Source: a virus
Taxonomy: Duplodnaviria > Heunggongvirae > Uroviricota > Caudoviricetes
DNA: 6,787 bases
Reading direction: 5' to 3' (one strand)
Virus record (IMG/VR): IMGVR_UViG_2711768058_000003
Shown here: positions 446 to 5,552 of the stretch, in pieces
Layout of the letters: every line of letters begins with the position of its first letter
How positions within the stretch are numbered: the first letter of the stretch is position 1
Notes under the pieces: generated by a model
What the model was told of the DNA's origin: nothing
What the model saw: only the letters and a program-made list of their open reading frames with translations
Databases searched by the model: none
Position numbers and translations under genes: made by a program

Positions 446-786
446 CGGAGGCGGATTTGTATCCTCATCTGGCGCATCTTGCCGGCGGGCAGGTGTACCC
501 GTATGTGGTCCCCCTGCTGGATGGCAGGCCGTTGGTGGCGCTTCCGTGGGTGGTTTTCAGCCTGATTTCATCGGTGTCAGCGGACGTGATGGGCGGGCAG
601 GCGGAGTCCTCAGTGTCGGTGCAGATAGACGTTTATGCCGGGACTGTGACGCAGGCGCGTCAGATACGTCAGGACGCCCGTGAAGCCATAATGCTGCTGG
701 CCCCGGGATCCGTCAGTGAAATGCAGGACTATATTCCGGAAAACCGCTGTTACCGTGCAACCCTGGAGTTTCAGGTCACGGTGTGA
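442..786 (+). CDS. Small tail terminator-like protein (functional analogue of lambda gpU; likely DUF3168-type), 114 aa
   Basis: ATG at 442 overlaps the upstream stop (ATGA), suggesting translational coupling. Size and position immediately before the major tail gene fit the usual neck / gp10-like / terminator / major-tail order. No detectable similarity to lambda U itself from memory, so the family assignment is tentative. Confidence 0.5.
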   Translation: MTEADLYPHLAHLAGGQVYPYVVPLLDGRPLVALPWVVFSLISSVSADVMGGQAESSVSVQIDVYAGTVTQARQIRQDAREAIMLLAPGSVSEMQDYIPENRCYRATLEFQVTV

Positions 787-812
787 CTTTTTCTTTTTTT
801 CTACAAAACCAT

Positions 813-838
813 ACCCCGCCGCGTGCGGGTTTTTTATT
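813..838 (+). terminator. Intrinsic-terminator-like hairpin: stem CCCGC (815-819) / GCGGG (825-829), loop CGCGT, followed by TTTTTTATTAT
   Basis: Seen directly: GC-rich 5-bp stem (6 bp if A813-T830 pairs), 5-nt loop, then a T-run at 830-836. It lies in the 65-nt gap between the terminator-like gene and the major tail gene. Confidence 0.4.
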
Positions 839-841
839 ATC

Positions 842-848
842 AGGAGGC
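842..848 (+). promoter_or_regulatory. Shine-Dalgarno AGGAGG for the major tail protein gene
   Basis: AGGAGG at 842-847 lies 4 nt upstream of ATG 852; it is the strongest SD in the window, consistent with the most abundant tail protein. Confidence 0.7.
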
Positions 849-851
849 AGA

Positions 852-1568
852 ATGTCTGCTTTGTATGAACGCTCACAGCTGACGCAGGTGATGATTTCAT
901 CTGCCCCGGCGACTGCTGAAACTATGGATAAGGCGGAATATCTGCGCCTGGACTGCACCATCAAGGAAGTCCAGTTCACCGCCGGTCAGAAACAGGATAT
1001 TGATGTGACCACGCTCTGCTCCACAGAGCAGGAGAGCATCAACGGTCTGGGGGCGTCGTCTGAGATTTCCATGTCGGGTAATTTTTATCTGAATCAGGCC
1101 CAGAACGCCCTGCGTGATGCCTATGACAATGACGCGTTGTATGCGTTTAAGGTGCTGTTTCCGTCCGGTAAGGGCTTTAAATTCCTGGCGGAAGTGCGTC
1201 AGCACACCTGGTCATCCGGTACCAACGGTGTGGTGGCTGCAACGTTCTCACTGCGTCTGAAAGGCAAACCGGTGTCCTTTGTGGTACCGCTGGCGTTTGT
1301 GAAAAATCTGGATAAGACACTTACCGTGAATACCGGTGCGCTGCTGACAATGTCAGTCAGTGCCAACGGGGGAATGCCGCCGTATAAATACGCCTGGAAG
1401 AAGGATGGTCAGCCGGTTGACGGGCAGACGACAGACACCTTCAGTAAGCCAGGTGCGCAGTCCGCTGATGCGGGGAAATATACCTGCGTGGTGACCGATT
1501 CGGCAGAGAAAGCACAGAGTGTGACGTCTGTTGAATGCACCGTGACAGTGAGCGCAGCCGCCGGATAA
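852..1568 (+). CDS. Major tail tube protein with C-terminal Ig-like (I-set-type) domain, 238 aa
   Basis: ATG 852 follows a perfect AGGAGG SD; stop TAA 1566-1568. The C-terminal ~85 aa carry an Ig-like signature (YKYAWKKDGQ ... ADAGKYTCVVTD, i.e. W-x-K-D-G and D-x-G-x-Y-x-C motifs). Position directly upstream of the G/T chaperone pair and tape measure gene. The ORF-track start at 783 is an upstream in-frame ATG with no SD that overlaps the terminator hairpin. Confidence 0.85.
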   Translation: MSALYERSQLTQVMISSAPATAETMDKAEYLRLDCTIKEVQFTAGQKQDIDVTTLCSTEQESINGLGASSEISMSGNFYLNQAQNALRDAYDNDALYAFKVLFPSGKGFKFLAEVRQHTWSSGTNGVVAATFSLRLKGKPVSFVVPLAFVKNLDKTLTVNTGALLTMSVSANGGMPPYKYAWKKDGQPVDGQTTDTFSKPGAQSADAGKYTCVVTDSAEKAQSVTSVECTVTVSAAAG

Positions 1569-1582
1569 GGGGATGGGTCATC

Positions 1583-1957
1583 ATGAAAAAGGATCTGAAA
1601 ACGCTGGCGCTGGCCAGACTGTCAGGGTTTCGTCATAAAACGGTGAAGGTGCCGGAATGGGGGAATGTCAGCGTGGTGCTGCGGGAGCCTTCGGCAGAGG
1701 CCTGGTATCTGTGGCAGGAAGTGCTCAATGGTGATGGAGAGGATGACGATACCCTGTCGGTGGTGGCGAAAACCCGCCGTAACCTGGAAGCGGATGTGAC
1801 GCTGTTCTGCGATGTCCTGTGTGATACGGACCTGCAGCGGGTGTTCACTCCGGACGACCGTGAGCAGGTGCTGGCCGTCTATGGTCCGGTACATGCCCGG
1901 TTGCTGCGTCAGGCACTGGAACTGATCGCTGATGCAGAGTCGGCCAGAAAAAAGTAG
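1583..1957 (+). CDS. G: Tail assembly chaperone, lambda G-like, 124 aa
   Basis: ATG 1583 is preceded by AAGGGGA (1568-1574). The ORF ends in the slippery heptamer A AAA AAG followed by TAG. Acidic small protein immediately upstream of the tape measure gene, the canonical G position. The ORF-track start at 1535 overlaps the major tail gene and lacks an SD. Confidence 0.8.
   Translation: MKKDLKTLALARLSGFRHKTVKVPEWGNVSVVLREPSAEAWYLWQEVLNGDGEDDDTLSVVAKTRRNLEADVTLFCDVLCDTDLQRVFTPDDREQVLAVYGPVHARLLRQALELIADAESARKK
1948..1954 (+). promoter_or_regulatory. Programmed -1 ribosomal frameshift slippery heptamer A_AAA_AAG (G-T fusion site)
   Basis: Zero-frame codons are AGA AAA AAG TAG (1946-1957). The -1 frame is open from 1933 through 2262, with no stop between the slip site and the ATG at 1981. 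The X_XXY_YYZ heptamer is the same as the classical dnaX-type site. Confidence 0.75.
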
Positions 1958-2262
1958 CCCGCCAGGAAATTCGCTTTCTGATGCGACTTGCGCTCCGTCT
2001 GGGGCGCACCTTATCCGAACTGCGCCACAGCCTGAGTGCGAGCGAGGCGATGATGTGGATGGAGTTCGACAGGATATCCCCGCTGGGTGATGAGCGCGGG
2101 GATATCCGTAATGCACAGATCGTGAAAGCGGTTTTCGGGGCACAGGGGATGAATGTTGCACTGAAGGACGTCATGCTCTGCTGGGGCGAGGATGAGGATA
2201 AGCCGGAGGTGGATCCGTTTGCGGCGCTGGAAGACGCGCTGAGCTTTGCAGCACAGTCATGA
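1954..2262 (+). CDS. T: Tail assembly chaperone T-like segment, expressed as a G-T fusion by -1 frameshift (fusion spans 1583..2262, roughly 226 aa); the ORF-track ATG at 1981 is probably not used independently
   Basis: Frame continuity across the slip site was checked codon by codon. Stop TGA at 2260-2262. The conserved G/T frameshift arrangement upstream of the tape measure gene is established for lambda and most long-tailed phages. Confidence 0.75.
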   Translation, partial: VARQEIRFLMRLALRLGRTLSELRHSLSASEAMMWMEFDRISPLGDERGDIRNAQIVKAVFGAQGMNVALKDVMLCWGEDEDKPEVDPFAALEDALSFAAQS

Positions 2263-2267
2263 ATGAT

Positions 2268-2292
2268 GAGAACCGCTGAGGCGGTTTTTTTA
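2268..2292 (+). terminator. Intrinsic-terminator-like hairpin between T and tape measure gene: stem AACCGC (2271-2276) / GCGGTT (2281-2286), loop TGAG, then a T-run to 2291
   Basis: Seen directly: perfect 6-bp stem (extendable to about 9 bp with G-U pairs), tetraloop, and seven consecutive T (2285-2291). It lies in the 47-nt gap 6 nt after the T stop codon. Confidence 0.45.
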
Positions 2293-2309: not shown

Positions 2310-5300
2310 ATGGCGACGTTACGTGAACTGATTATCAAAATTTCGGCAAATTCACAGTCATTCCAGTCGGAGATCCAGCGGGCGTCCCGTATGGGCAGTG
2401 AATATTACCGGACCCTGCAGAATGGCGGACGTCATGCCGCTGCTGCCGCACGGGAACAGCGCCGCGCCCTTGCAGAACTGAACAGTCAGTTGACGGAAAT
2501 TCGCGGTTCTGCTGTCGGAATGGCTGGCGCATTTGCCGGTGCCTTTGCCACCGGACACCTGATTTCGCTGGCCGATGAGTGGGGTTCCGTGAATGCCCGT
2601 CTGAAACAGGCATCTCAGTCATCGGATGAATTCTCGTCATCACAGAAAGTGCTGATGGATATCAGTCAGCGAACAGGTACCGCGTTTTCGGATAATGCGG
2701 CCCTGTTTGCCCGTTCGGCTGCCTCGATGCGTGAATATGGTTACAGTGCTGATGATGTGCTGAAGGTGACGGAGGCCATTTCGACAGGACTGAAACTGTC
2801 AGGGGCTGGAGTTGCGGAATCCGGTTCGGTGATCACCCAGTTCAGCCAGGCACTGGCACAGGGTGTACTGCGTGGCGAAGAATTTAATGCTGTTAACGAA
2901 AATGGCGACCGGGTGATCCGCGCGCTTGCTGCGGGGATGGGTGTGGCCCGTAAAGATCTGAAGGCAATGGCGGATGACGGAAAACTGACAGCGGATAAAG
3001 TGGTCCCTGCGTTAATCAGCCAGCTGGGGATATTACGTGATGAATATGCGGCCATGCCGGAAACGGTTTCCGGTAGTATCACGAAGGTGGAAAACGCCTT
3101 TATGGCCTGGGTGGGCGGAGTGAATGAGGCCTGCGGGGTGACAAAAACGCTCTCCGGCGTGCTGAACGGTGTTGCCGGACAGATTGATAATGTGGCAACA
3201 GCTGTGGGGGCGCTGGTTGCCGTCGGGGTTGCCCGGTACTTTGGCAATATGGCCTCCGGAGCGATGTCTGCCACGGCAGGACTTGTGACGGCTGCACGTA
3301 ATGAAGTTGCACTGGCGGAAGCACAGTTCAGGGGAACGCAGATTGCCACGGCGCGGGCAAGGGCAGCCGTGTACCGTGCTCAGCAGGCCGTGGCGGCAGC
3401 CCGCGGGACGGAGATGCAGATTGCTGCAGAGGCCCGTCTGGCGGCCACACAGGAACGCCTGAACAGAAATATTGCTGCCAGAAGCGCCGCCCAGAATGCG
3501 CTGAACAGTACAACGGCGGTGGGCTCACGTCTGATGAGCGGTGCGCTGGGGCTGGTTGGTGGCGTACCCGGACTGGTGATGCTGGGGGCTGCAGCATGGT
3601 ACACGCTGTACCAGAATCAGGAGCAGGCCAGGGAGTCTGCGCGCCAGTATGCACTGACGATAGATGAAATCGTGCATAAAACGCCGTCAATGTCTTTGCC
3701 TGAAGCCTCAGATAATGAAGGACGAACACGGGCGGCGCTGACAGAGCAGAACCGGCTGATTGATGAACAGGCTAGTCGGGTGAAATCCCTGCAGGAAAAA
3801 ATCGCAGGATATCAGTATGTTCTGGCGAACCCGGGCTGGACGACCGGTGACGGATTCATGATAAACCATCTGACCTCGGTGAAGACCGTAACGGAAGGGC
3901 TTGCTCAGGCAACAGAGCAGCTTGCCGTTGAGCAGTCCCGTCTGGCACTGATGCAGGAAAAAGCGCAGTCCATTCAGGATGTGCTTGCCGGGCTGGAAGA
4001 CCGTCGTGTGGCGTTAATTCGTCAGCAGGCGGCAGAGCAGAATAAGGTGTACCAGTCCATGCTGGTTATGAACGGTCAGCATACGGAATTCAACCGTCTG
4101 CTGGGGCTGGGTAATGAACTGCTTCAGCAGCGGCAGGGACTGGTGAATGTGCCGTTACGGCTGCCACAGGCCACTCTGGATGATAAACAGCAGAGTGCCC
4201 TGACAAAAACAGAGCGTGAGCTGGCCCTGTCCAGACTGAAAGGGGAAGAAAAAGAGCGTGTCCGACTGGGGTATGCGGCGGATGACCTCGGTTTTGTGGG
4301 TGATCCGTATCAGGAGGCGAGACAACGTTATATCAGTAATGCCCTGGAAGCCTGGCGCAATAACGAGGCGAATAAACCCAAATCCCGGGGTGGAAAATCA
4401 GAGACGGAAAAAGCGGAAGACAGTTTTTCCCGGCTGCTGAAGCAGCAGAAAGAGCAACTGGCACTGGCGGGGCAGAATACAGAGCTGGCGAAGCTGAAAT
4501 ACCAGACTGCGCAGGGCGAACTGAAAACCCTGACGGAGATGCAGAAGCAGGAACTGCTGCGCAATGCGGCCCTGATTGACCAGCAAAAAATCCGGGAGCA
4601 GTTGCGGTCCCGGGAAGAGACCCTGAAGAATGATAATGTGGCTGCGCGTGCATCAAATGAAGCGGAACTGCTGGGGTACGGGCAGGGAGAGCGGCTCCGT
4701 GAACGCATGCGGGAGTTGCAGCAGATCCGCGACAGTTTCCGCCAGAAGGATGCGGACCTTCAGTCTCAGTATCAGACCGGGGATATCAGTGAGGATTTTT
4801 ACAGACAGGCTCTGGCACAGAACGCGCAGTATCTGAGTGAACGTCTGAAAGAGCAGGAAGCCTTTTATGCCGAATCGGATGTGCAGCGTGCGGACTGGCA
4901 TAAAGGGCTGCAGGAGGGATTCAGTAACTGGGTGGATAATGCGTCCGATTACGCCTCACAGGCAGCACAGCTTGCGACGGAGGGTATCTCAGGGATGGTG
5001 AATAACATCACGGAGATGCTGAACGGAAATAAAGTGGAATGGCGCAGCTGGGCCTCATCAGTGCTGCAGGAAATATCAAAAGTTCTTATGAATGCCGCGA
5101 TTGTCAACGGGATCAAGACGGCGGCAAACAGTATGTCCGGAGCGGGAGGATTTATCGGCAGTATTGGTAGCTGGCTGGGCGGTGCGGTGGCCAATGCAAA
5201 AGGCGGTGTGTATACCTCGGCAAACCTGAGTGCGTACAGCAACAGTATTGTGGATACGCCCACGTACTTTGCCTTTGCAAAAGGGGCGGGACTGATGGGG

Positions 5301-5552
5301 GAGGCCGGTCCTGAAGCCATTATGCCCCTGACCCGGGCGGCGGATGGCTCGCTGGGTGTGCGAGCGGTGGGCAGTATGAACGGCAGTGCAGGTCTGGTGT
5401 ATTCCCCGGTCTACCATATCGCCATTCAGAATGACGGGACTAATGGCCAGATAGGTCCGGAAGCTGCGGGCAGCCTTGTGCAACTGATTGACCAGCGGGT
5501 GCAGTCGGTGATGCTGTCCATGCGACGTGACGGAGGAATGCTGAGTGGCTGA
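2310..5552 (+). CDS. H: Tail tape measure protein, lambda gpH family, 1080 aa
   Basis: ATG 2310 is preceded by GGAGAAAGGTGA. It is the longest ORF in the window and follows the G/T pair. The C-terminal region (NDGTNGQIGPEA ... MRRDGGMLSG) closely matches the lambda gpH C-terminus as I recall it (NNDGTNGQIGPAA ... MRDGGLFSGGGR). The central part is rich in Q/E/R/L coiled-coil-like sequence and includes Gly/Ala-rich hydrophobic segments. Confidence 0.95.
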   Translation: MATLRELIIKISANSQSFQSEIQRASRMGSEYYRTLQNGGRHAAAAAREQRRALAELNSQLTEIRGSAVGMAGAFAGAFATGHLISLADEWGSVNARLKQASQSSDEFSSSQKVLMDISQRTGTAFSDNAALFARSAASMREYGYSADDVLKVTEAISTGLKLSGAGVAESGSVITQFSQALAQGVLRGEEFNAVNENGDRVIRALAAGMGVARKDLKAMADDGKLTADKVVPALISQLGILRDEYAAMPETVSGSITKVENAFMAWVGGVNEACGVTKTLSGVLNGVAGQIDNVATAVGALVAVGVARYFGNMASGAMSATAGLVTAARNEVALAEAQFRGTQIATARARAAVYRAQQAVAAARGTEMQIAAEARLAATQERLNRNIAARSAAQNALNSTTAVGSRLMSGALGLVGGVPGLVMLGAAAWYTLYQNQEQARESARQYALTIDEIVHKTPSMSLPEASDNEGRTRAALTEQNRLIDEQASRVKSLQEKIAGYQYVLANPGWTTGDGFMINHLTSVKTVTEGLAQATEQLAVEQSRLALMQEKAQSIQDVLAGLEDRRVALIRQQAAEQNKVYQSMLVMNGQHTEFNRLLGLGNELLQQRQGLVNVPLRLPQATLDDKQQSALTKTERELALSRLKGEEKERVRLGYAADDLGFVGDPYQEARQRYISNALEAWRNNEANKPKSRGGKSETEKAEDSFSRLLKQQKEQLALAGQNTELAKLKYQTAQGELKTLTEMQKQELLRNAALIDQQKIREQLRSREETLKNDNVAARASNEAELLGYGQGERLRERMRELQQIRDSFRQKDADLQSQYQTGDISEDFYRQALAQNAQYLSERLKEQEAFYAESDVQRADWHKGLQEGFSNWVDNASDYASQAAQLATEGISGMVNNITEMLNGNKVEWRSWASSVLQEISKVLMNAAIVNGIKTAANSMSGAGGFIGSIGSWLGGAVANAKGGVYTSANLSAYSNSIVDTPTYFAFAKGAGLMGEAGPEAIMPLTRAADGSLGVRAVGSMNGSAGLVYSPVYHIAIQNDGTNGQIGPEAAGSLVQLIDQRVQSVMLSMRRDGGMLSG

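What the first reader, a model, noticed from the sequence alone, without database searches (positions are those of the whole stretch)
1933..2262. G-T programmed -1 frameshift at A_AAA_AAG (1948-1954)
The G-like ORF ends ...AGA AAA AAG TAG, and the -1 frame is open from 1933 to the TGA at 2260-2262. A -1 slip on the AAA-AAG tandem lysine codons would therefore give a fusion ending ...ESARKK-VARQEIRFLMRLALR.... The fixed low ratio of GT to G is known to be needed for tail assembly in lambda. The ATG at 1981 used by the ORF track would give a truncated T with no obvious SD, so automated annotation is likely to miscall this gene. I saw no obvious stimulatory hairpin or upstream SD-like element, but did not fold the region.
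Basis: partly seen in the sequence, partly recalled or inferred. Interest (0 to 1): 0.5.

Follow-up and report, generated by a model that had tools for sequence, protein, structure and literature searches.

The report
Known phage tail-chaperone frameshift site
This is the well-known programmed -1 ribosomal frameshift that makes the long (G-T) form of a phage tail assembly chaperone, here in an HK97-like tail module of an E. coli prophage; a cassette one base different was already measured at about 7% shifting, so it is real but ordinary.

Summary
A 124-codon chaperone gene (1583-1957) ends AGA AAA AAG TAG. A_AAA_AAG lies at 1948-1954. The -1 frame is open from 1933 to the TGA at 2260-2262.

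The upstream ORF is Pfam Phage_TAC_1 (1e-61) and the -1 frame is Phage_tail_T (2e-19). The predicted 226-aa fusion aligns across the junction without a gap to HK97 gp14 (60% identity), which GenBank annotates as "translated due to a -1 frameshift". It also matches a PHROG profile of full-length fusions in one stretch (2e-84).

In relatives from many Enterobacterales genera the shift-prone A_AAG sits at the same position. In some, the two frames overlap by only 10 nt (AAAAAAGTAG). The nine codons between the slip site and the annotated ATG 1981 keep their amino acids while third positions vary, so they are translated in the T frame.

Antonov et al. 2013 cloned window 1928-2002 with one mismatch and measured 7% frameshifting in E. 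coli.

I found no conserved stimulatory hairpin or SD-like element; the adjacent stop codon is the only candidate stimulator. Public annotation splits the gene in two.

Verdict: already known, low interest.

The parts
852..1568 (+). Major tail (tube) protein gene with a C-terminal Ig-like domain. It is the upstream neighbour that fixes the G/T position in the tail module.
   Evidence: Pfam Phage_TTP_11 and Phage_tail_2 (both just under their curated cut-offs) plus Ig_3, Ig_2 and I-set above cut-off. PGAP starts 'major tail subunit' at window 852.
1583..1957 (+). G-like tail assembly chaperone gene: 124 codons plus TAG, the product of standard decoding.
   Evidence: Pfam Phage_TAC_1 1.1e-61, covering 1-124 of 124. 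phrog_344 'tail assembly chaperone' 9e-47. 63% identical end to end to HK97 gp13. AAGGGGA at 1567-1573 lies 9 nt before the ATG.
1933..1957 (+). Overlap of the G frame and the open -1 (T) frame. Any productive -1 shift must occur within it.
   Evidence: T-frame stop TGA at 1930-1932 and G stop TAG at 1955-1957.
1948..1954 (+). Slippery heptamer A_AAA_AAG. tRNA-Lys re-pairs from AAG to AAA, alone or in tandem with the tRNA-Lys on the preceding AAA.
   Evidence: The AAAG core is invariant at this column in 17 of 18 diverse junctions. The same heptamer was in the cassette that gave 7% frameshifting.
1955..1957 (+). G-frame stop codon TAG directly after the heptamer; a candidate 'shifty stop' stimulator (inferred).
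   Evidence: A stop directly follows A_AAG in the window, in the Evi-type loci and in loci from Serratia, Symbiopectobacterium, Brenneria, Pectobacterium, Buttiauxella, Providencia, Morganella, Xenorhabdus, Zophobihabitans and Klebsiella. It is absent from the HK97 and Burkholderia types.
1954..2262 (+). T segment read in the -1 frame after the slip: 102 codons plus TGA. The predicted GT product is 226 aa.
   Evidence: Pfam Phage_tail_T 1.6e-19, residues 28-98, i.e. nt 2035-2247. tblastn to HK97 covers residues 1-101. The fusion matches phrog_14766 over 2-225 against 2-224, 1.6e-84. 60% identity to HK97 gp14 with no gap at the junction.
1981..1983 (+). ATG used by public annotation as the start of a separate 93-aa 'tail assembly protein T'. 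It is more likely an internal, conserved Met codon.
   Evidence: Annotated as a start in NC_011356 and in E. coli SHP24. Met is invariant in 28 of 28 distinct junctions, but the nine codons before it are conserved with synonymous variation.
1990..2007 (+). Hairpin GCGCUCCGUCUGGGGCGC, 35 nt after the heptamer. Probably a by-product of the conserved protein motif A-L-R-x-G-R, not a frameshift stimulator.
   Evidence: Folds (z -1.9 and -0.7). RNAalifold on 18 junctions gave 6 pairs and 0 compensatory changes, and 4 sequences each break one pair.
2268..2291 (+). Terminator-like hairpin plus U-run in the gap between T and the tape measure gene.
   Evidence: Fold -10.8 kcal/mol. HK97 has annotated putative terminators at the equivalent place.
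2310..5552 (+). Tape measure protein gene. It is the downstream neighbour and the presumed binding partner of G and GT.
   Evidence: Pfam Phage_HK97_TLTM 3.7e-90, TMP_3 2e-56, Tape_meas_lam_C 1.2e-17.

Best explanation
The window is the tail module of an HK97/lambda-like E. coli prophage, 99.6% identical over 1500-2400 to Stx phages YYZ-2008 and 2851.

Most ribosomes translating the chaperone gene stop at TAG 1955-1957 and release the 124-aa G protein. A minority, probably about 5-10%, slip one base back on A_AAA_AAG (1948-1954). They then read GUA at 1954-1956 and continue in the -1 frame to 2262. This gives a 226-aa GT fusion, ...ESARKK-VARQEIRFLM....

Two routes give the same protein. In one, the two tRNA-Lys slip in tandem. 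In the other, the P-site tRNA-Lys slips from AAG to AAA while the slowly decoded UAG sits in the A site.

By analogy with lambda, G and the G part of GT coat the tape measure protein, and the T part recruits the major tail protein. The fixed G:GT ratio set by the slip frequency would then be what tail assembly needs.

Status of each step:
- Shown here: sequence anatomy, family membership, colinearity with a known frameshift product, positional conservation of the site, and T-frame coding constraint upstream of the annotated ATG.
- Shown by others: 7% -1 frameshifting on a cassette one base different.
- Inferred: the P-site versus tandem route, the role of the stop codon, and the assembly function.
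For: Position and families: the two ORFs lie between the tail tube gene and the tape measure gene, and match Phage_TAC_1 (1e-61) and Phage_tail_T (1.6e-19).

Homology to a known frameshift product: HK97 gp14 is annotated 'translated due to a -1 frameshift'. The window G is 63% identical to gp13, with K124 aligned to the K at the HK97 slip. The predicted fusion is 60% identical to gp14 over 225 residues with no gap at the junction. The fusion matches phrog_14766, a 224-position profile of full-length fusions, in one stretch at 1.6e-84.

Comparative survey of the relatives fetched from genomes and viral contigs:
- The heptamer ends exactly 32 nt before the L codon of the LALRxGR motif in all Enterobacterales relatives, HK97 included.
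- A_AAA_AAG plus a stop is found in at least 10 genera.
- In Evi-type, Brenneria, Pectobacterium, Buttiauxella and Zophobihabitans loci the frames overlap by only 10 nt (AAAAAAGTAG), which pins the site.
- Burkholderia phage KS9 has an annotated join at A_AAA_AAG.

Coding constraint: between the slip and ATG 1981, Ala uses 4 codons, Pro 4, Gly 3, Phe 2 and Leu 3, while the amino acids are kept. In the stop-adjacent loci this stretch is non-coding in the G frame.

Experiment by others: Antonov et al. 2013 (PMC3711429), Table S2. Cassette Phage_TAC 15618692 equals window 1928-2002 with 1 mismatch and gave 7% +/- 0.79 -1 frameshifting in an E. coli GST-MBP reporter.

Background: A_AAA_AAG is the most shift-prone heptamer in E. 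coli, and the lambda G:GT ratio is crucial for tail assembly (review PMC5009743).
Against: - Nothing was measured for this exact sequence. The window differs from the tested cassette at position 1964, 10 nt after the heptamer.
- The reporter assay does not separate ribosomal from transcriptional slippage.
- No conserved stimulatory element was found, so the efficiency in the native phage mRNA is uncertain.
- ATG 1981 is invariant and could add some free T by re-initiation.
- In the only 100%-identical genome inspected, the prophage has a portal gene annotated as frameshifted, so this copy may sit in a defective prophage and never be used.
- The assembly role is taken from lambda, not tested in this family.
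Confidence: 0.93

Rival explanations
1. T is made as a separate 93-aa protein, as annotated. Ribosomes would initiate at ATG 1981 independently, or re-initiate there after terminating at TAG 1955-1957 only 23 nt upstream. No fusion would be needed.
For: - ATG 1981 is invariant in 28 of 28 distinct junctions.
- It lies 23 nt after the G stop.
- The window has AGGA at 1964-1967.
- Every public annotation inspected for this lineage uses this start.
Against: - The nine T-frame codons upstream of the ATG are conserved at the amino-acid level with synonymous variation. This cannot be explained if translation starts at 1981.
- The AGGA is 13 nt from the ATG and is absent (CGGA) from all close relatives.
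- Burkholderia relatives have no Met at this position, and in KS9 the gene is annotated as a join.
- HK97 gp14 is an annotated fusion.
- A fusion product was seen in the reporter at 7%.
- This route could still add a minor amount of free T.
Confidence: 0.04
2. The -1 frame is reached by transcriptional slippage. RNA polymerase would add one extra A on the A6 run (1948-1953), so a fraction of mRNAs encode an in-frame GT.
For: - The site is a homopolymer run.
- Relatives have longer runs of 8 or 9 As (Evi type, L107).
- The published reporter assay cannot tell the two mechanisms apart.
- Natural run-length variants that fuse the frames exist (L113, L019).
Against: - The run here is only 6 As. 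Runs implicated in transcriptional realignment are longer than 7 As (Antonov et al.).
- HK97-type (G_GAA_AAG) and Klebsiella-type (GCA_AAG TAA) relatives shift at the same position with only 4 or 3 As. This fits tRNA-Lys slippage on A_AAG, not polymerase slippage.
- The third base of the second Lys codon is G in 17 of 18 junctions, as expected for ribosomal slippage.
Confidence: 0.03

Closest known systems
Phage HK97 gp13 / gp14 (tail assembly chaperone and its -1 frameshift extension; GenBank AF069529)
   Same: - Same gene position, between the major tail gene and the tape measure gene.
- G 63% identical and T 57% identical.
- The fusion is colinear at 60% identity with no gap at the junction.
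- The slip is at the homologous codon...AR(K/E)K|V....
- Same Pfam families; the tape measure protein also matches the HK97 family.
   Different: - The HK97 heptamer is G_GAA_AAG, not A_AAA_AAG.
- HK97 G continues for 6 more codons after the slip, whereas here the stop follows the heptamer directly.
- HK97 carries a moron (gp15) between T and the tape measure gene; the window has only a 47-nt gap with a terminator-like hairpin.
Phage lambda G / GT (Levin, Hendrix and Casjens 1993; Xu, Hendrix and Duda 2004, 2013, 2014; cited through review PMC5009743)
   Same: - Same architecture and logic: low-level -1 frameshift near the 3' end of G, T read in the -1 frame, and position before the tape measure gene.
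- The T part belongs to the lambda gpT Pfam family.
- No strong RNA stimulator. That lambda lacks one is from my own knowledge.
   Different: - The G part hits Phage_TAC_1 (PF06222). It gave no other Pfam hit at E <= 0.01, so it does not match the family I recall as holding lambda gpG.
- The lambda heptamer is G_GGA_AAG (my own knowledge) and its G:GT ratio is about 30:1. The near-identical cassette here gave 7%.
Antonov et al. 2013 'Phage_TAC' GeneTack cluster (41 fs-genes), cassette 15618692
   Same: Its 75-nt listed insert equals window 1928-2002 except for one base. It has the same heptamer and the same adjacent TAG.
   Different: - C instead of A at window position 1964 (Pro instead of Gln in the T frame).
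- It was tested in a GST-MBP reporter, not in the phage.
E. coli dnaX gamma/tau frameshift (A_AAA_AAG)
   Same: Identical heptamer and the same single tRNA-Lys (mnm5s2UUU) slippage chemistry.
   Different: - dnaX has an upstream SD-like stimulator and a downstream hairpin and reaches about 50%.
- Here the upstream anti-SD pairing is at background, -3.3 kcal/mol.
- There is no conserved hairpin at stimulatory spacing.
- The efficiency is about 7%.
Minimal A_AAG -1 sites (for example IS1222 G_CGA_AAG) and 'shifty stops' (Weiss et al. 1987)
   Same: - Klebsiella and Raoultella relatives keep only GCA_AAG followed by TAA at the same position. This shows that single tRNA-Lys slippage next to a stop is sufficient in this family.
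- The review describes A_AAG as the minimal -1 site.
   Different: The window has the full tandem heptamer. The contribution of the stop codon is untested.

Membership tests
Conserved G/GT tail assembly chaperone frameshift of long-tailed dsDNA phages (Xu, Hendrix and Duda 2004) | Two overlapping ORFs located between the major tail protein gene and the tape measure protein gene | tested here: met
   Tube gene 852-1568, G 1583-1957, T frame 1933-2262, tape measure gene 2310-5552.
Conserved G/GT tail assembly chaperone frameshift of long-tailed dsDNA phages (Xu, Hendrix and Duda 2004) | The downstream ORF is in the -1 frame relative to the upstream ORF, and a slippery sequence lies in the overlap | tested here: met
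   The T frame is the G frame minus 1. A_AAA_AAG at 1948-1954 is the only X_XXY_YYZ heptamer in the 25-nt overlap.
Conserved G/GT tail assembly chaperone frameshift of long-tailed dsDNA phages (Xu, Hendrix and Duda 2004) | The arrangement and the slip site are conserved in diverged relatives | tested here: met
   The intact relatives surveyed keep a shift-prone site at the same alignment position: A_AAA_AAG, A_AAA_AAA, G_GAA_AAG, GCA_AAG, A_AAA_AAC or G_GGA_AAC. Two A-run length variants (L019, L113) are the exceptions.
Conserved G/GT tail assembly chaperone frameshift of long-tailed dsDNA phages (Xu, Hendrix and Duda 2004) | A fusion protein is actually produced at a low, fixed frequency | not testable with these tools
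   Literature only: a cassette with 1 mismatch to window 1928-2002 gave 7% +/- 0.79 in an E. coli reporter (PMC3711429).
Conserved G/GT tail assembly chaperone frameshift of long-tailed dsDNA phages (Xu, Hendrix and Duda 2004) | G and GT are both required for tail assembly, bind the tape measure and tail tube proteins, and are absent from virions | not testable with these tools
   Known for lambda (review PMC5009743); inferred here by homology.
HK97 gp13/gp14 subfamily (Pfam Phage_TAC_1 + Phage_tail_T; phrog_14766) | Full-length sequence similarity of both parts, and colinearity across the junction | tested here: met
   Phage_TAC_1 1.1e-61 over 1-124 of 124; Phage_tail_T 1.6e-19. Fusion against phrog_14766: 2-225 to 2-224, 1.6e-84. 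60% identity to gp14 with no junction gap.
HK97 gp13/gp14 subfamily (Pfam Phage_TAC_1 + Phage_tail_T; phrog_14766) | Same slippery heptamer and the same G C-terminal extension as HK97 | tested here: not met
   HK97 has CGG GAA AAG TCT ... TAA, with 6 codons after the slip. The window has AGA AAA AAG TAG. This is a variant within the subfamily and is shared with Evi-type phages.
dnaX / IS911-type stimulated A_AAA_AAG frameshift | SD-like element about 10 nt upstream of the heptamer | tested here: not met
   The best anti-SD duplex in the 30 nt upstream is -3.3 kcal/mol, which is background. Some relatives have GAGG or GGAG, but it is not conserved.
dnaX / IS911-type stimulated A_AAA_AAG frameshift | Stable hairpin or pseudoknot 5-9 nt downstream of the heptamer | tested here: not met
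   The only consensus hairpin starts 35 nt downstream, has 0 compensatory changes and is broken in 4 of 18 sequences.
Transcriptional realignment (polymerase slippage) sites | Homopolymer run long enough for RNA polymerase slippage (more than 7 As) | tested here: not met
   The run is 6 As, 1948-1953. The threshold is as quoted in PMC3711429.

The most novel reading that the evidence does not exclude
In this sub-lineage the only stimulator of the shift is the stop codon that abuts the heptamer. The G:GT ratio would then be set by a race between RF1 termination at UAG and backward slippage of the P-site tRNA-Lys. The Klebsiella variant GCA_AAG TAA, where tandem slippage is impossible, points that way. 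Tail assembly would become directly sensitive to host RF1 activity and to the thiolation state of tRNA-Lys, which differs from the lambda and HK97 arrangement where G continues past the slip site.
Probability: 0.3. Interest if true: 0.3.

Novelty: already known. Interest (0 to 1): 0.1.

Why it matters
Biologically it adds nothing new. The G-T frameshift has been textbook phage biology since 1993-2004, and this sequence, one base apart, was tested in 2013.

The practical value is for annotation. The gene pair is present in 1246 of 5426 complete E. coli genomes and in many Stx-phage records. In every record of this lineage inspected it is annotated as two separate CDS, with T starting at the internal Met-1981. 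The exact 226-aa fusion is absent from a 15-billion-protein collection, while the two split products are seen on hundreds to thousands of contigs.

The comparative table of junction types could serve as a small rule for annotating ribosomal slippage in HK97-like tail modules. The types are A_AAA_AAG plus stop, G_GAA_AAG, GCA_AAG plus stop, and A_AAA_AAG without a stop.

Tried and rejected
- Downstream stimulatory structure, single sequence. Folds gave z -1.9 and -0.7.
- Downstream stimulatory structure, comparative. RNAalifold on 18 diverse junctions found only a hairpin 35 nt downstream, with no covariation. The conserved A-L-R-x-G-R codons explain it. Rejected.
- Upstream SD-like stimulator. 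An anti-SD duplex scan gave background in the window and variable values in relatives. Rejected as a conserved feature.
- Independent SD for ATG 1981. The AGGA at 1964-1967 is 13 nt away and is unique to this window and its exact match; relatives have CGGA. Rejected.
- NCBIfam gave no hit for either part.
- Xu et al. 2004 is not in the held library. Whether that paper lists this prophage family could not be checked.
- Antonov et al. Figure S5 (internal initiation blots) is held only as a legend. Their result on re-initiation for this cassette is not retrievable.
- The terminator scan missed the hairpin at 2268-2291. I folded it by script instead.
- Not used, because the question was already settled: the large homology searches (search for homologous proteins, the representative search), structure prediction, and the metagenome scan.
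Full report
WHAT THE WINDOW IS
The 6.8-kb window is a colinear phage tail module on the + strand:
- an HK97-gp10-like gene, 50-445
- a tail completion gene, 442-786
- the major tail protein gene with a C-terminal Ig-like domain, 852-1568
- a small chaperone gene, 1583-1957
- an ORF in the -1 frame ending at 2262
- a 1080-codon tape measure gene, 2310-5552 (Phage_HK97_TLTM 3.7e-90, TMP_3, Tape_meas_lam_C)
- homologues of the lambda M and L minor tail proteins

Region 1500-2400 is 99.6% identical to the Stx-converting phages YYZ-2008 and 2851 (genus Pankowvirus). Region 1583-2262 is found in 1246 of 5426 complete E. coli genomes, with up to 7 copies per genome.

CHECK OF THE OBSERVATION
The coordinates are right. 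The G frame reads AGA (1946-1948), AAA (1949-1951), AAG (1952-1954), TAG (1955-1957), so A_AAA_AAG occupies 1948-1954. The -1 frame has a TGA at 1930-1932 and is then open to the TGA at 2260-2262. A -1 slip gives ...ESARKK-VARQEIRFLMRLALR....

The real start of G is ATG 1583, preceded by AAGGGGA; PGAP uses it. The mechanical ORF start at 1535 is not the real one.

Within the 25-nt overlap (1933-1957) the heptamer is the only X_XXY_YYZ motif in the G frame. No ATG, GTG or TTG occurs in the T frame before ATG 1981. The heptamer by itself is not statistically remarkable: 2 found against 0.61 expected in the window. The case rests on frame, position and conservation.

WHAT THE TWO FRAMES ENCODE
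- The G ORF matches Pfam Phage_TAC_1 over its whole length (1.1e-61).
- The -1 frame matches Phage_tail_T, the lambda gpT family, at 1.6e-19 over residues 28-98.
- PHROGs gives 'tail assembly chaperone' for G.
- phrog_14766 is a 224-position profile built from full-length fusion proteins. G maps to positions 2-122 and the T frame to 127-224.
- The predicted 226-aa fusion matches that profile in one uninterrupted stretch, 2-225 against 2-224, at 1.6e-84.

THE CLOSEST CHARACTERISED RELATIVE
A tblastn search with the T-frame peptide found HK97 with the alignment starting at residue 1, the Val created by the slip. In the HK97 GenBank record, gene 14 is a two-piece CDS 'translated due to a -1 frameshift', overlapping gene 13, 'tail assembly chaperone'.

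The window G is 63% identical to gp13, with K124 aligned to the Lys at the HK97 slip. The predicted fusion is 60% identical to the 224-aa gp14. Its single one-residue gap lies far from the junction. Burkholderia phage KS9 also has an annotated join, at A_AAA_AAG.

COMPARATIVE SURVEY
I fetched 32 loci from one-genome-per-species bacterial genomes and 80 from IMG/VR with a T-domain alignment. I then analysed every junction by script.

In all Enterobacterales relatives, HK97 included, the slip site ends exactly 32 nt before the Leu codon of the LALRxGR motif, so the site is positionally homologous. Four junction types occur:
- (A) A_AAA_AAG followed directly by the G stop. This covers the window, all roughly 60 close relatives, Evi-type phages, and loci from Serratia, Symbiopectobacterium, Brenneria, Pectobacterium, Buttiauxella, Providencia, Morganella, Xenorhabdus and Zophobihabitans. 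One locus has A_AAA_AAA TAG.
- (B) The HK97 type, G_GAA_AAG, with six more G codons after the slip. One locus has CAG GAA AAG, which shows that GGAAAAG is the conserved core.
- (C) Klebsiella and Raoultella, GCA_AAG TAA. Only single tRNA-Lys slippage next to a stop is possible here.
- (D) Burkholderia and Achromobacter, A_AAA_AAG or A_AAA_AAC with no adjacent stop, plus a Pseudomonas locus (and an identical short contig labelled Mycobacterium) with G_GGA_AAC.

In several type-A loci a T-frame stop lies immediately before the heptamer (TAA AAA AAG TAG). The frames then overlap by only 10 nt, which leaves no other place to shift. Across 18 diverse junctions the bases AAAGT are invariant or nearly so, while the flanks vary.

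EVIDENCE THAT TRANSLATION IN THE T FRAME STARTS UPSTREAM OF ATG 1981
Among 28 distinct junctions, the nine T-frame codons between the slip and the annotated ATG keep their amino acids while third positions vary:

| Residue | Kept in | Codons used |
|---|---|---|
| Val | 27 of 28 | 3 |
| Ala | 23 of 28 | 4 |
| Pro | 26 of 28 | 4 |
| Gly | 20 of 28 | 3 |
| Phe | 28 of 28 | 2 |
| Leu | 27 of 28 | 3 |

In type-A loci this stretch lies after the G stop. The constraint can therefore only come from T-frame translation, and with no start codon available that translation needs the frameshift. This argues against the annotated 93-aa T being the main product.

STIMULATORS
- Upstream: anti-SD pairing in the window is at background, -3.3 kcal/mol. 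Some relatives have GAGG or GGAG 8-12 nt upstream, but this is not conserved.
- Downstream: single-sequence folds are unremarkable, z -1.9 and -0.7.
- Downstream, comparative: RNAalifold on 18 junctions finds only GCGCUC/GGGCGC, 35 nt past the heptamer. It has no compensatory change and four sequences each break one pair. It is explained by the conserved A-L-R-x-G-R codons.
- The only recurrent local feature is the stop codon abutting A_AAG in types A and C. A 'shifty stop' effect is plausible, but that is inference.

PRIOR EXPERIMENTAL WORK
Antonov et al. 2013 (NAR 41:6514; PMC3711429) found a GeneTack cluster 'phage tail assembly chaperone' of 41 frameshift genes similar to an HK97 protein. 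They tested two of them in a GST-MBP reporter in E. coli.

[quoted passage not shown] This is window 1928-2002 with one mismatch, A instead of C at 1964.

The review by Atkins et al. 2016 (PMC5009743) makes three relevant points. G-T frameshifting is widely conserved in long-tailed phages and the lambda 30:1 ratio is crucial for tail assembly. Neither product is in lambda virions. A_AAA_AAG is the most shift-prone heptamer in E. coli, because the single tRNA-Lys pairs better with AAA than with AAG.

MECHANISM
Most ribosomes terminate at UAG and release the 124-aa G. A minority shift -1 on A_AAA_AAG, read GUA, and make the 226-aa GT. Tandem slippage and P-site slippage against the stop codon give the same protein and cannot be told apart from sequence alone.

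Transcriptional slippage is unlikely, for two reasons. The run is only 6 As. Relatives with 3-4 As shift at the same place.

By homology with lambda, G and GT bind the tape measure protein and the T part recruits the tail tube protein. This step is inferred.

ANNOTATION
RefSeq phage records and PGAP annotate two CDS: 'phage tail assembly chaperone', and 'phage tail assembly protein T' or 'DUF4035', starting at ATG 1981. The exact fusion is absent from the 15-billion-protein collection. The split 93-aa and 124-aa products occur on 582 and at least 1000 contigs.

VERDICT
The feature is an already known programmed frameshift, an HK97-family member with the A_AAA_AAG-plus-stop variant of the site, and a near-identical cassette has already been tested. 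Interest is low. The residual open point is what sets the efficiency: the adjacent stop codon versus nothing at all.

Noticed in passing
window 2268-2291: A terminator-like hairpin (AACCGC-UGAG-GCGGUU) plus a U-run, -10.8 kcal/mol, sits in the 47-nt gap between the T stop and the tape measure start, inside the late tail operon. HK97 has annotated putative terminators and a moron (gp15) at the equivalent place; here the moron is absent. The consensus terminator scan missed it.
   Followed up: partly
window 773-850: Terminator-like hairpins lie between the tail completion gene and the major tail gene: 815-829, CCCGCCGCGTGCGGG plus T6, and another at 773-789. This suggests that the GTG 783 start used in RefSeq phage NC_011356 is wrong and that ATG 852, used by PGAP in E. 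coli SHP24, is the real start of the major tail gene.
   Followed up: partly
window 1365-1565 (major tail protein residues about 172-250, numbered from GTG 783): The major tail protein carries an in-frame C-terminal immunoglobulin-like domain (Ig_3, Ig_2, I-set; E 1e-7 to 2e-8).
   Followed up: no
window 1964: The window has A (CAG, Gln in the T frame). All roughly 60 close IMG/VR relatives and the published test cassette have C (CCG, Pro). Pro is kept in 26 of 28 distinct junctions. The change also creates an AGGA 13 nt before ATG 1981. E. coli SHP24 is 100% identical over 1583-2262.
   Followed up: partly
L113 about 1480-1504 and L019 about 1490-1504: These are A-run length variants at the slip site: 7 As in L113 where its relatives have 8, and 9 As in the Symbiopectobacterium endosymbiont locus L019. 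Both put G and T in one frame. They could be sequencing errors, decay, or real fixed fusions.
   Followed up: no
L118 1-737 (E. coli SHP24, upstream of the region matching the window): In the genome that matches 1583-2262 at 100%, the prophage portal gene is annotated as a 'frameshifted' pseudogene. That copy of the prophage may be defective.
   Followed up: no
L022, L024, L025 (Klebsiella and Raoultella), about 1474-1489: These relatives have a minimal junction, GCC AAA GCA AAG TAA, with a 16-nt frame overlap. Only single tRNA-Lys slippage on A_AAG next to the stop is possible there.
   Followed up: partly
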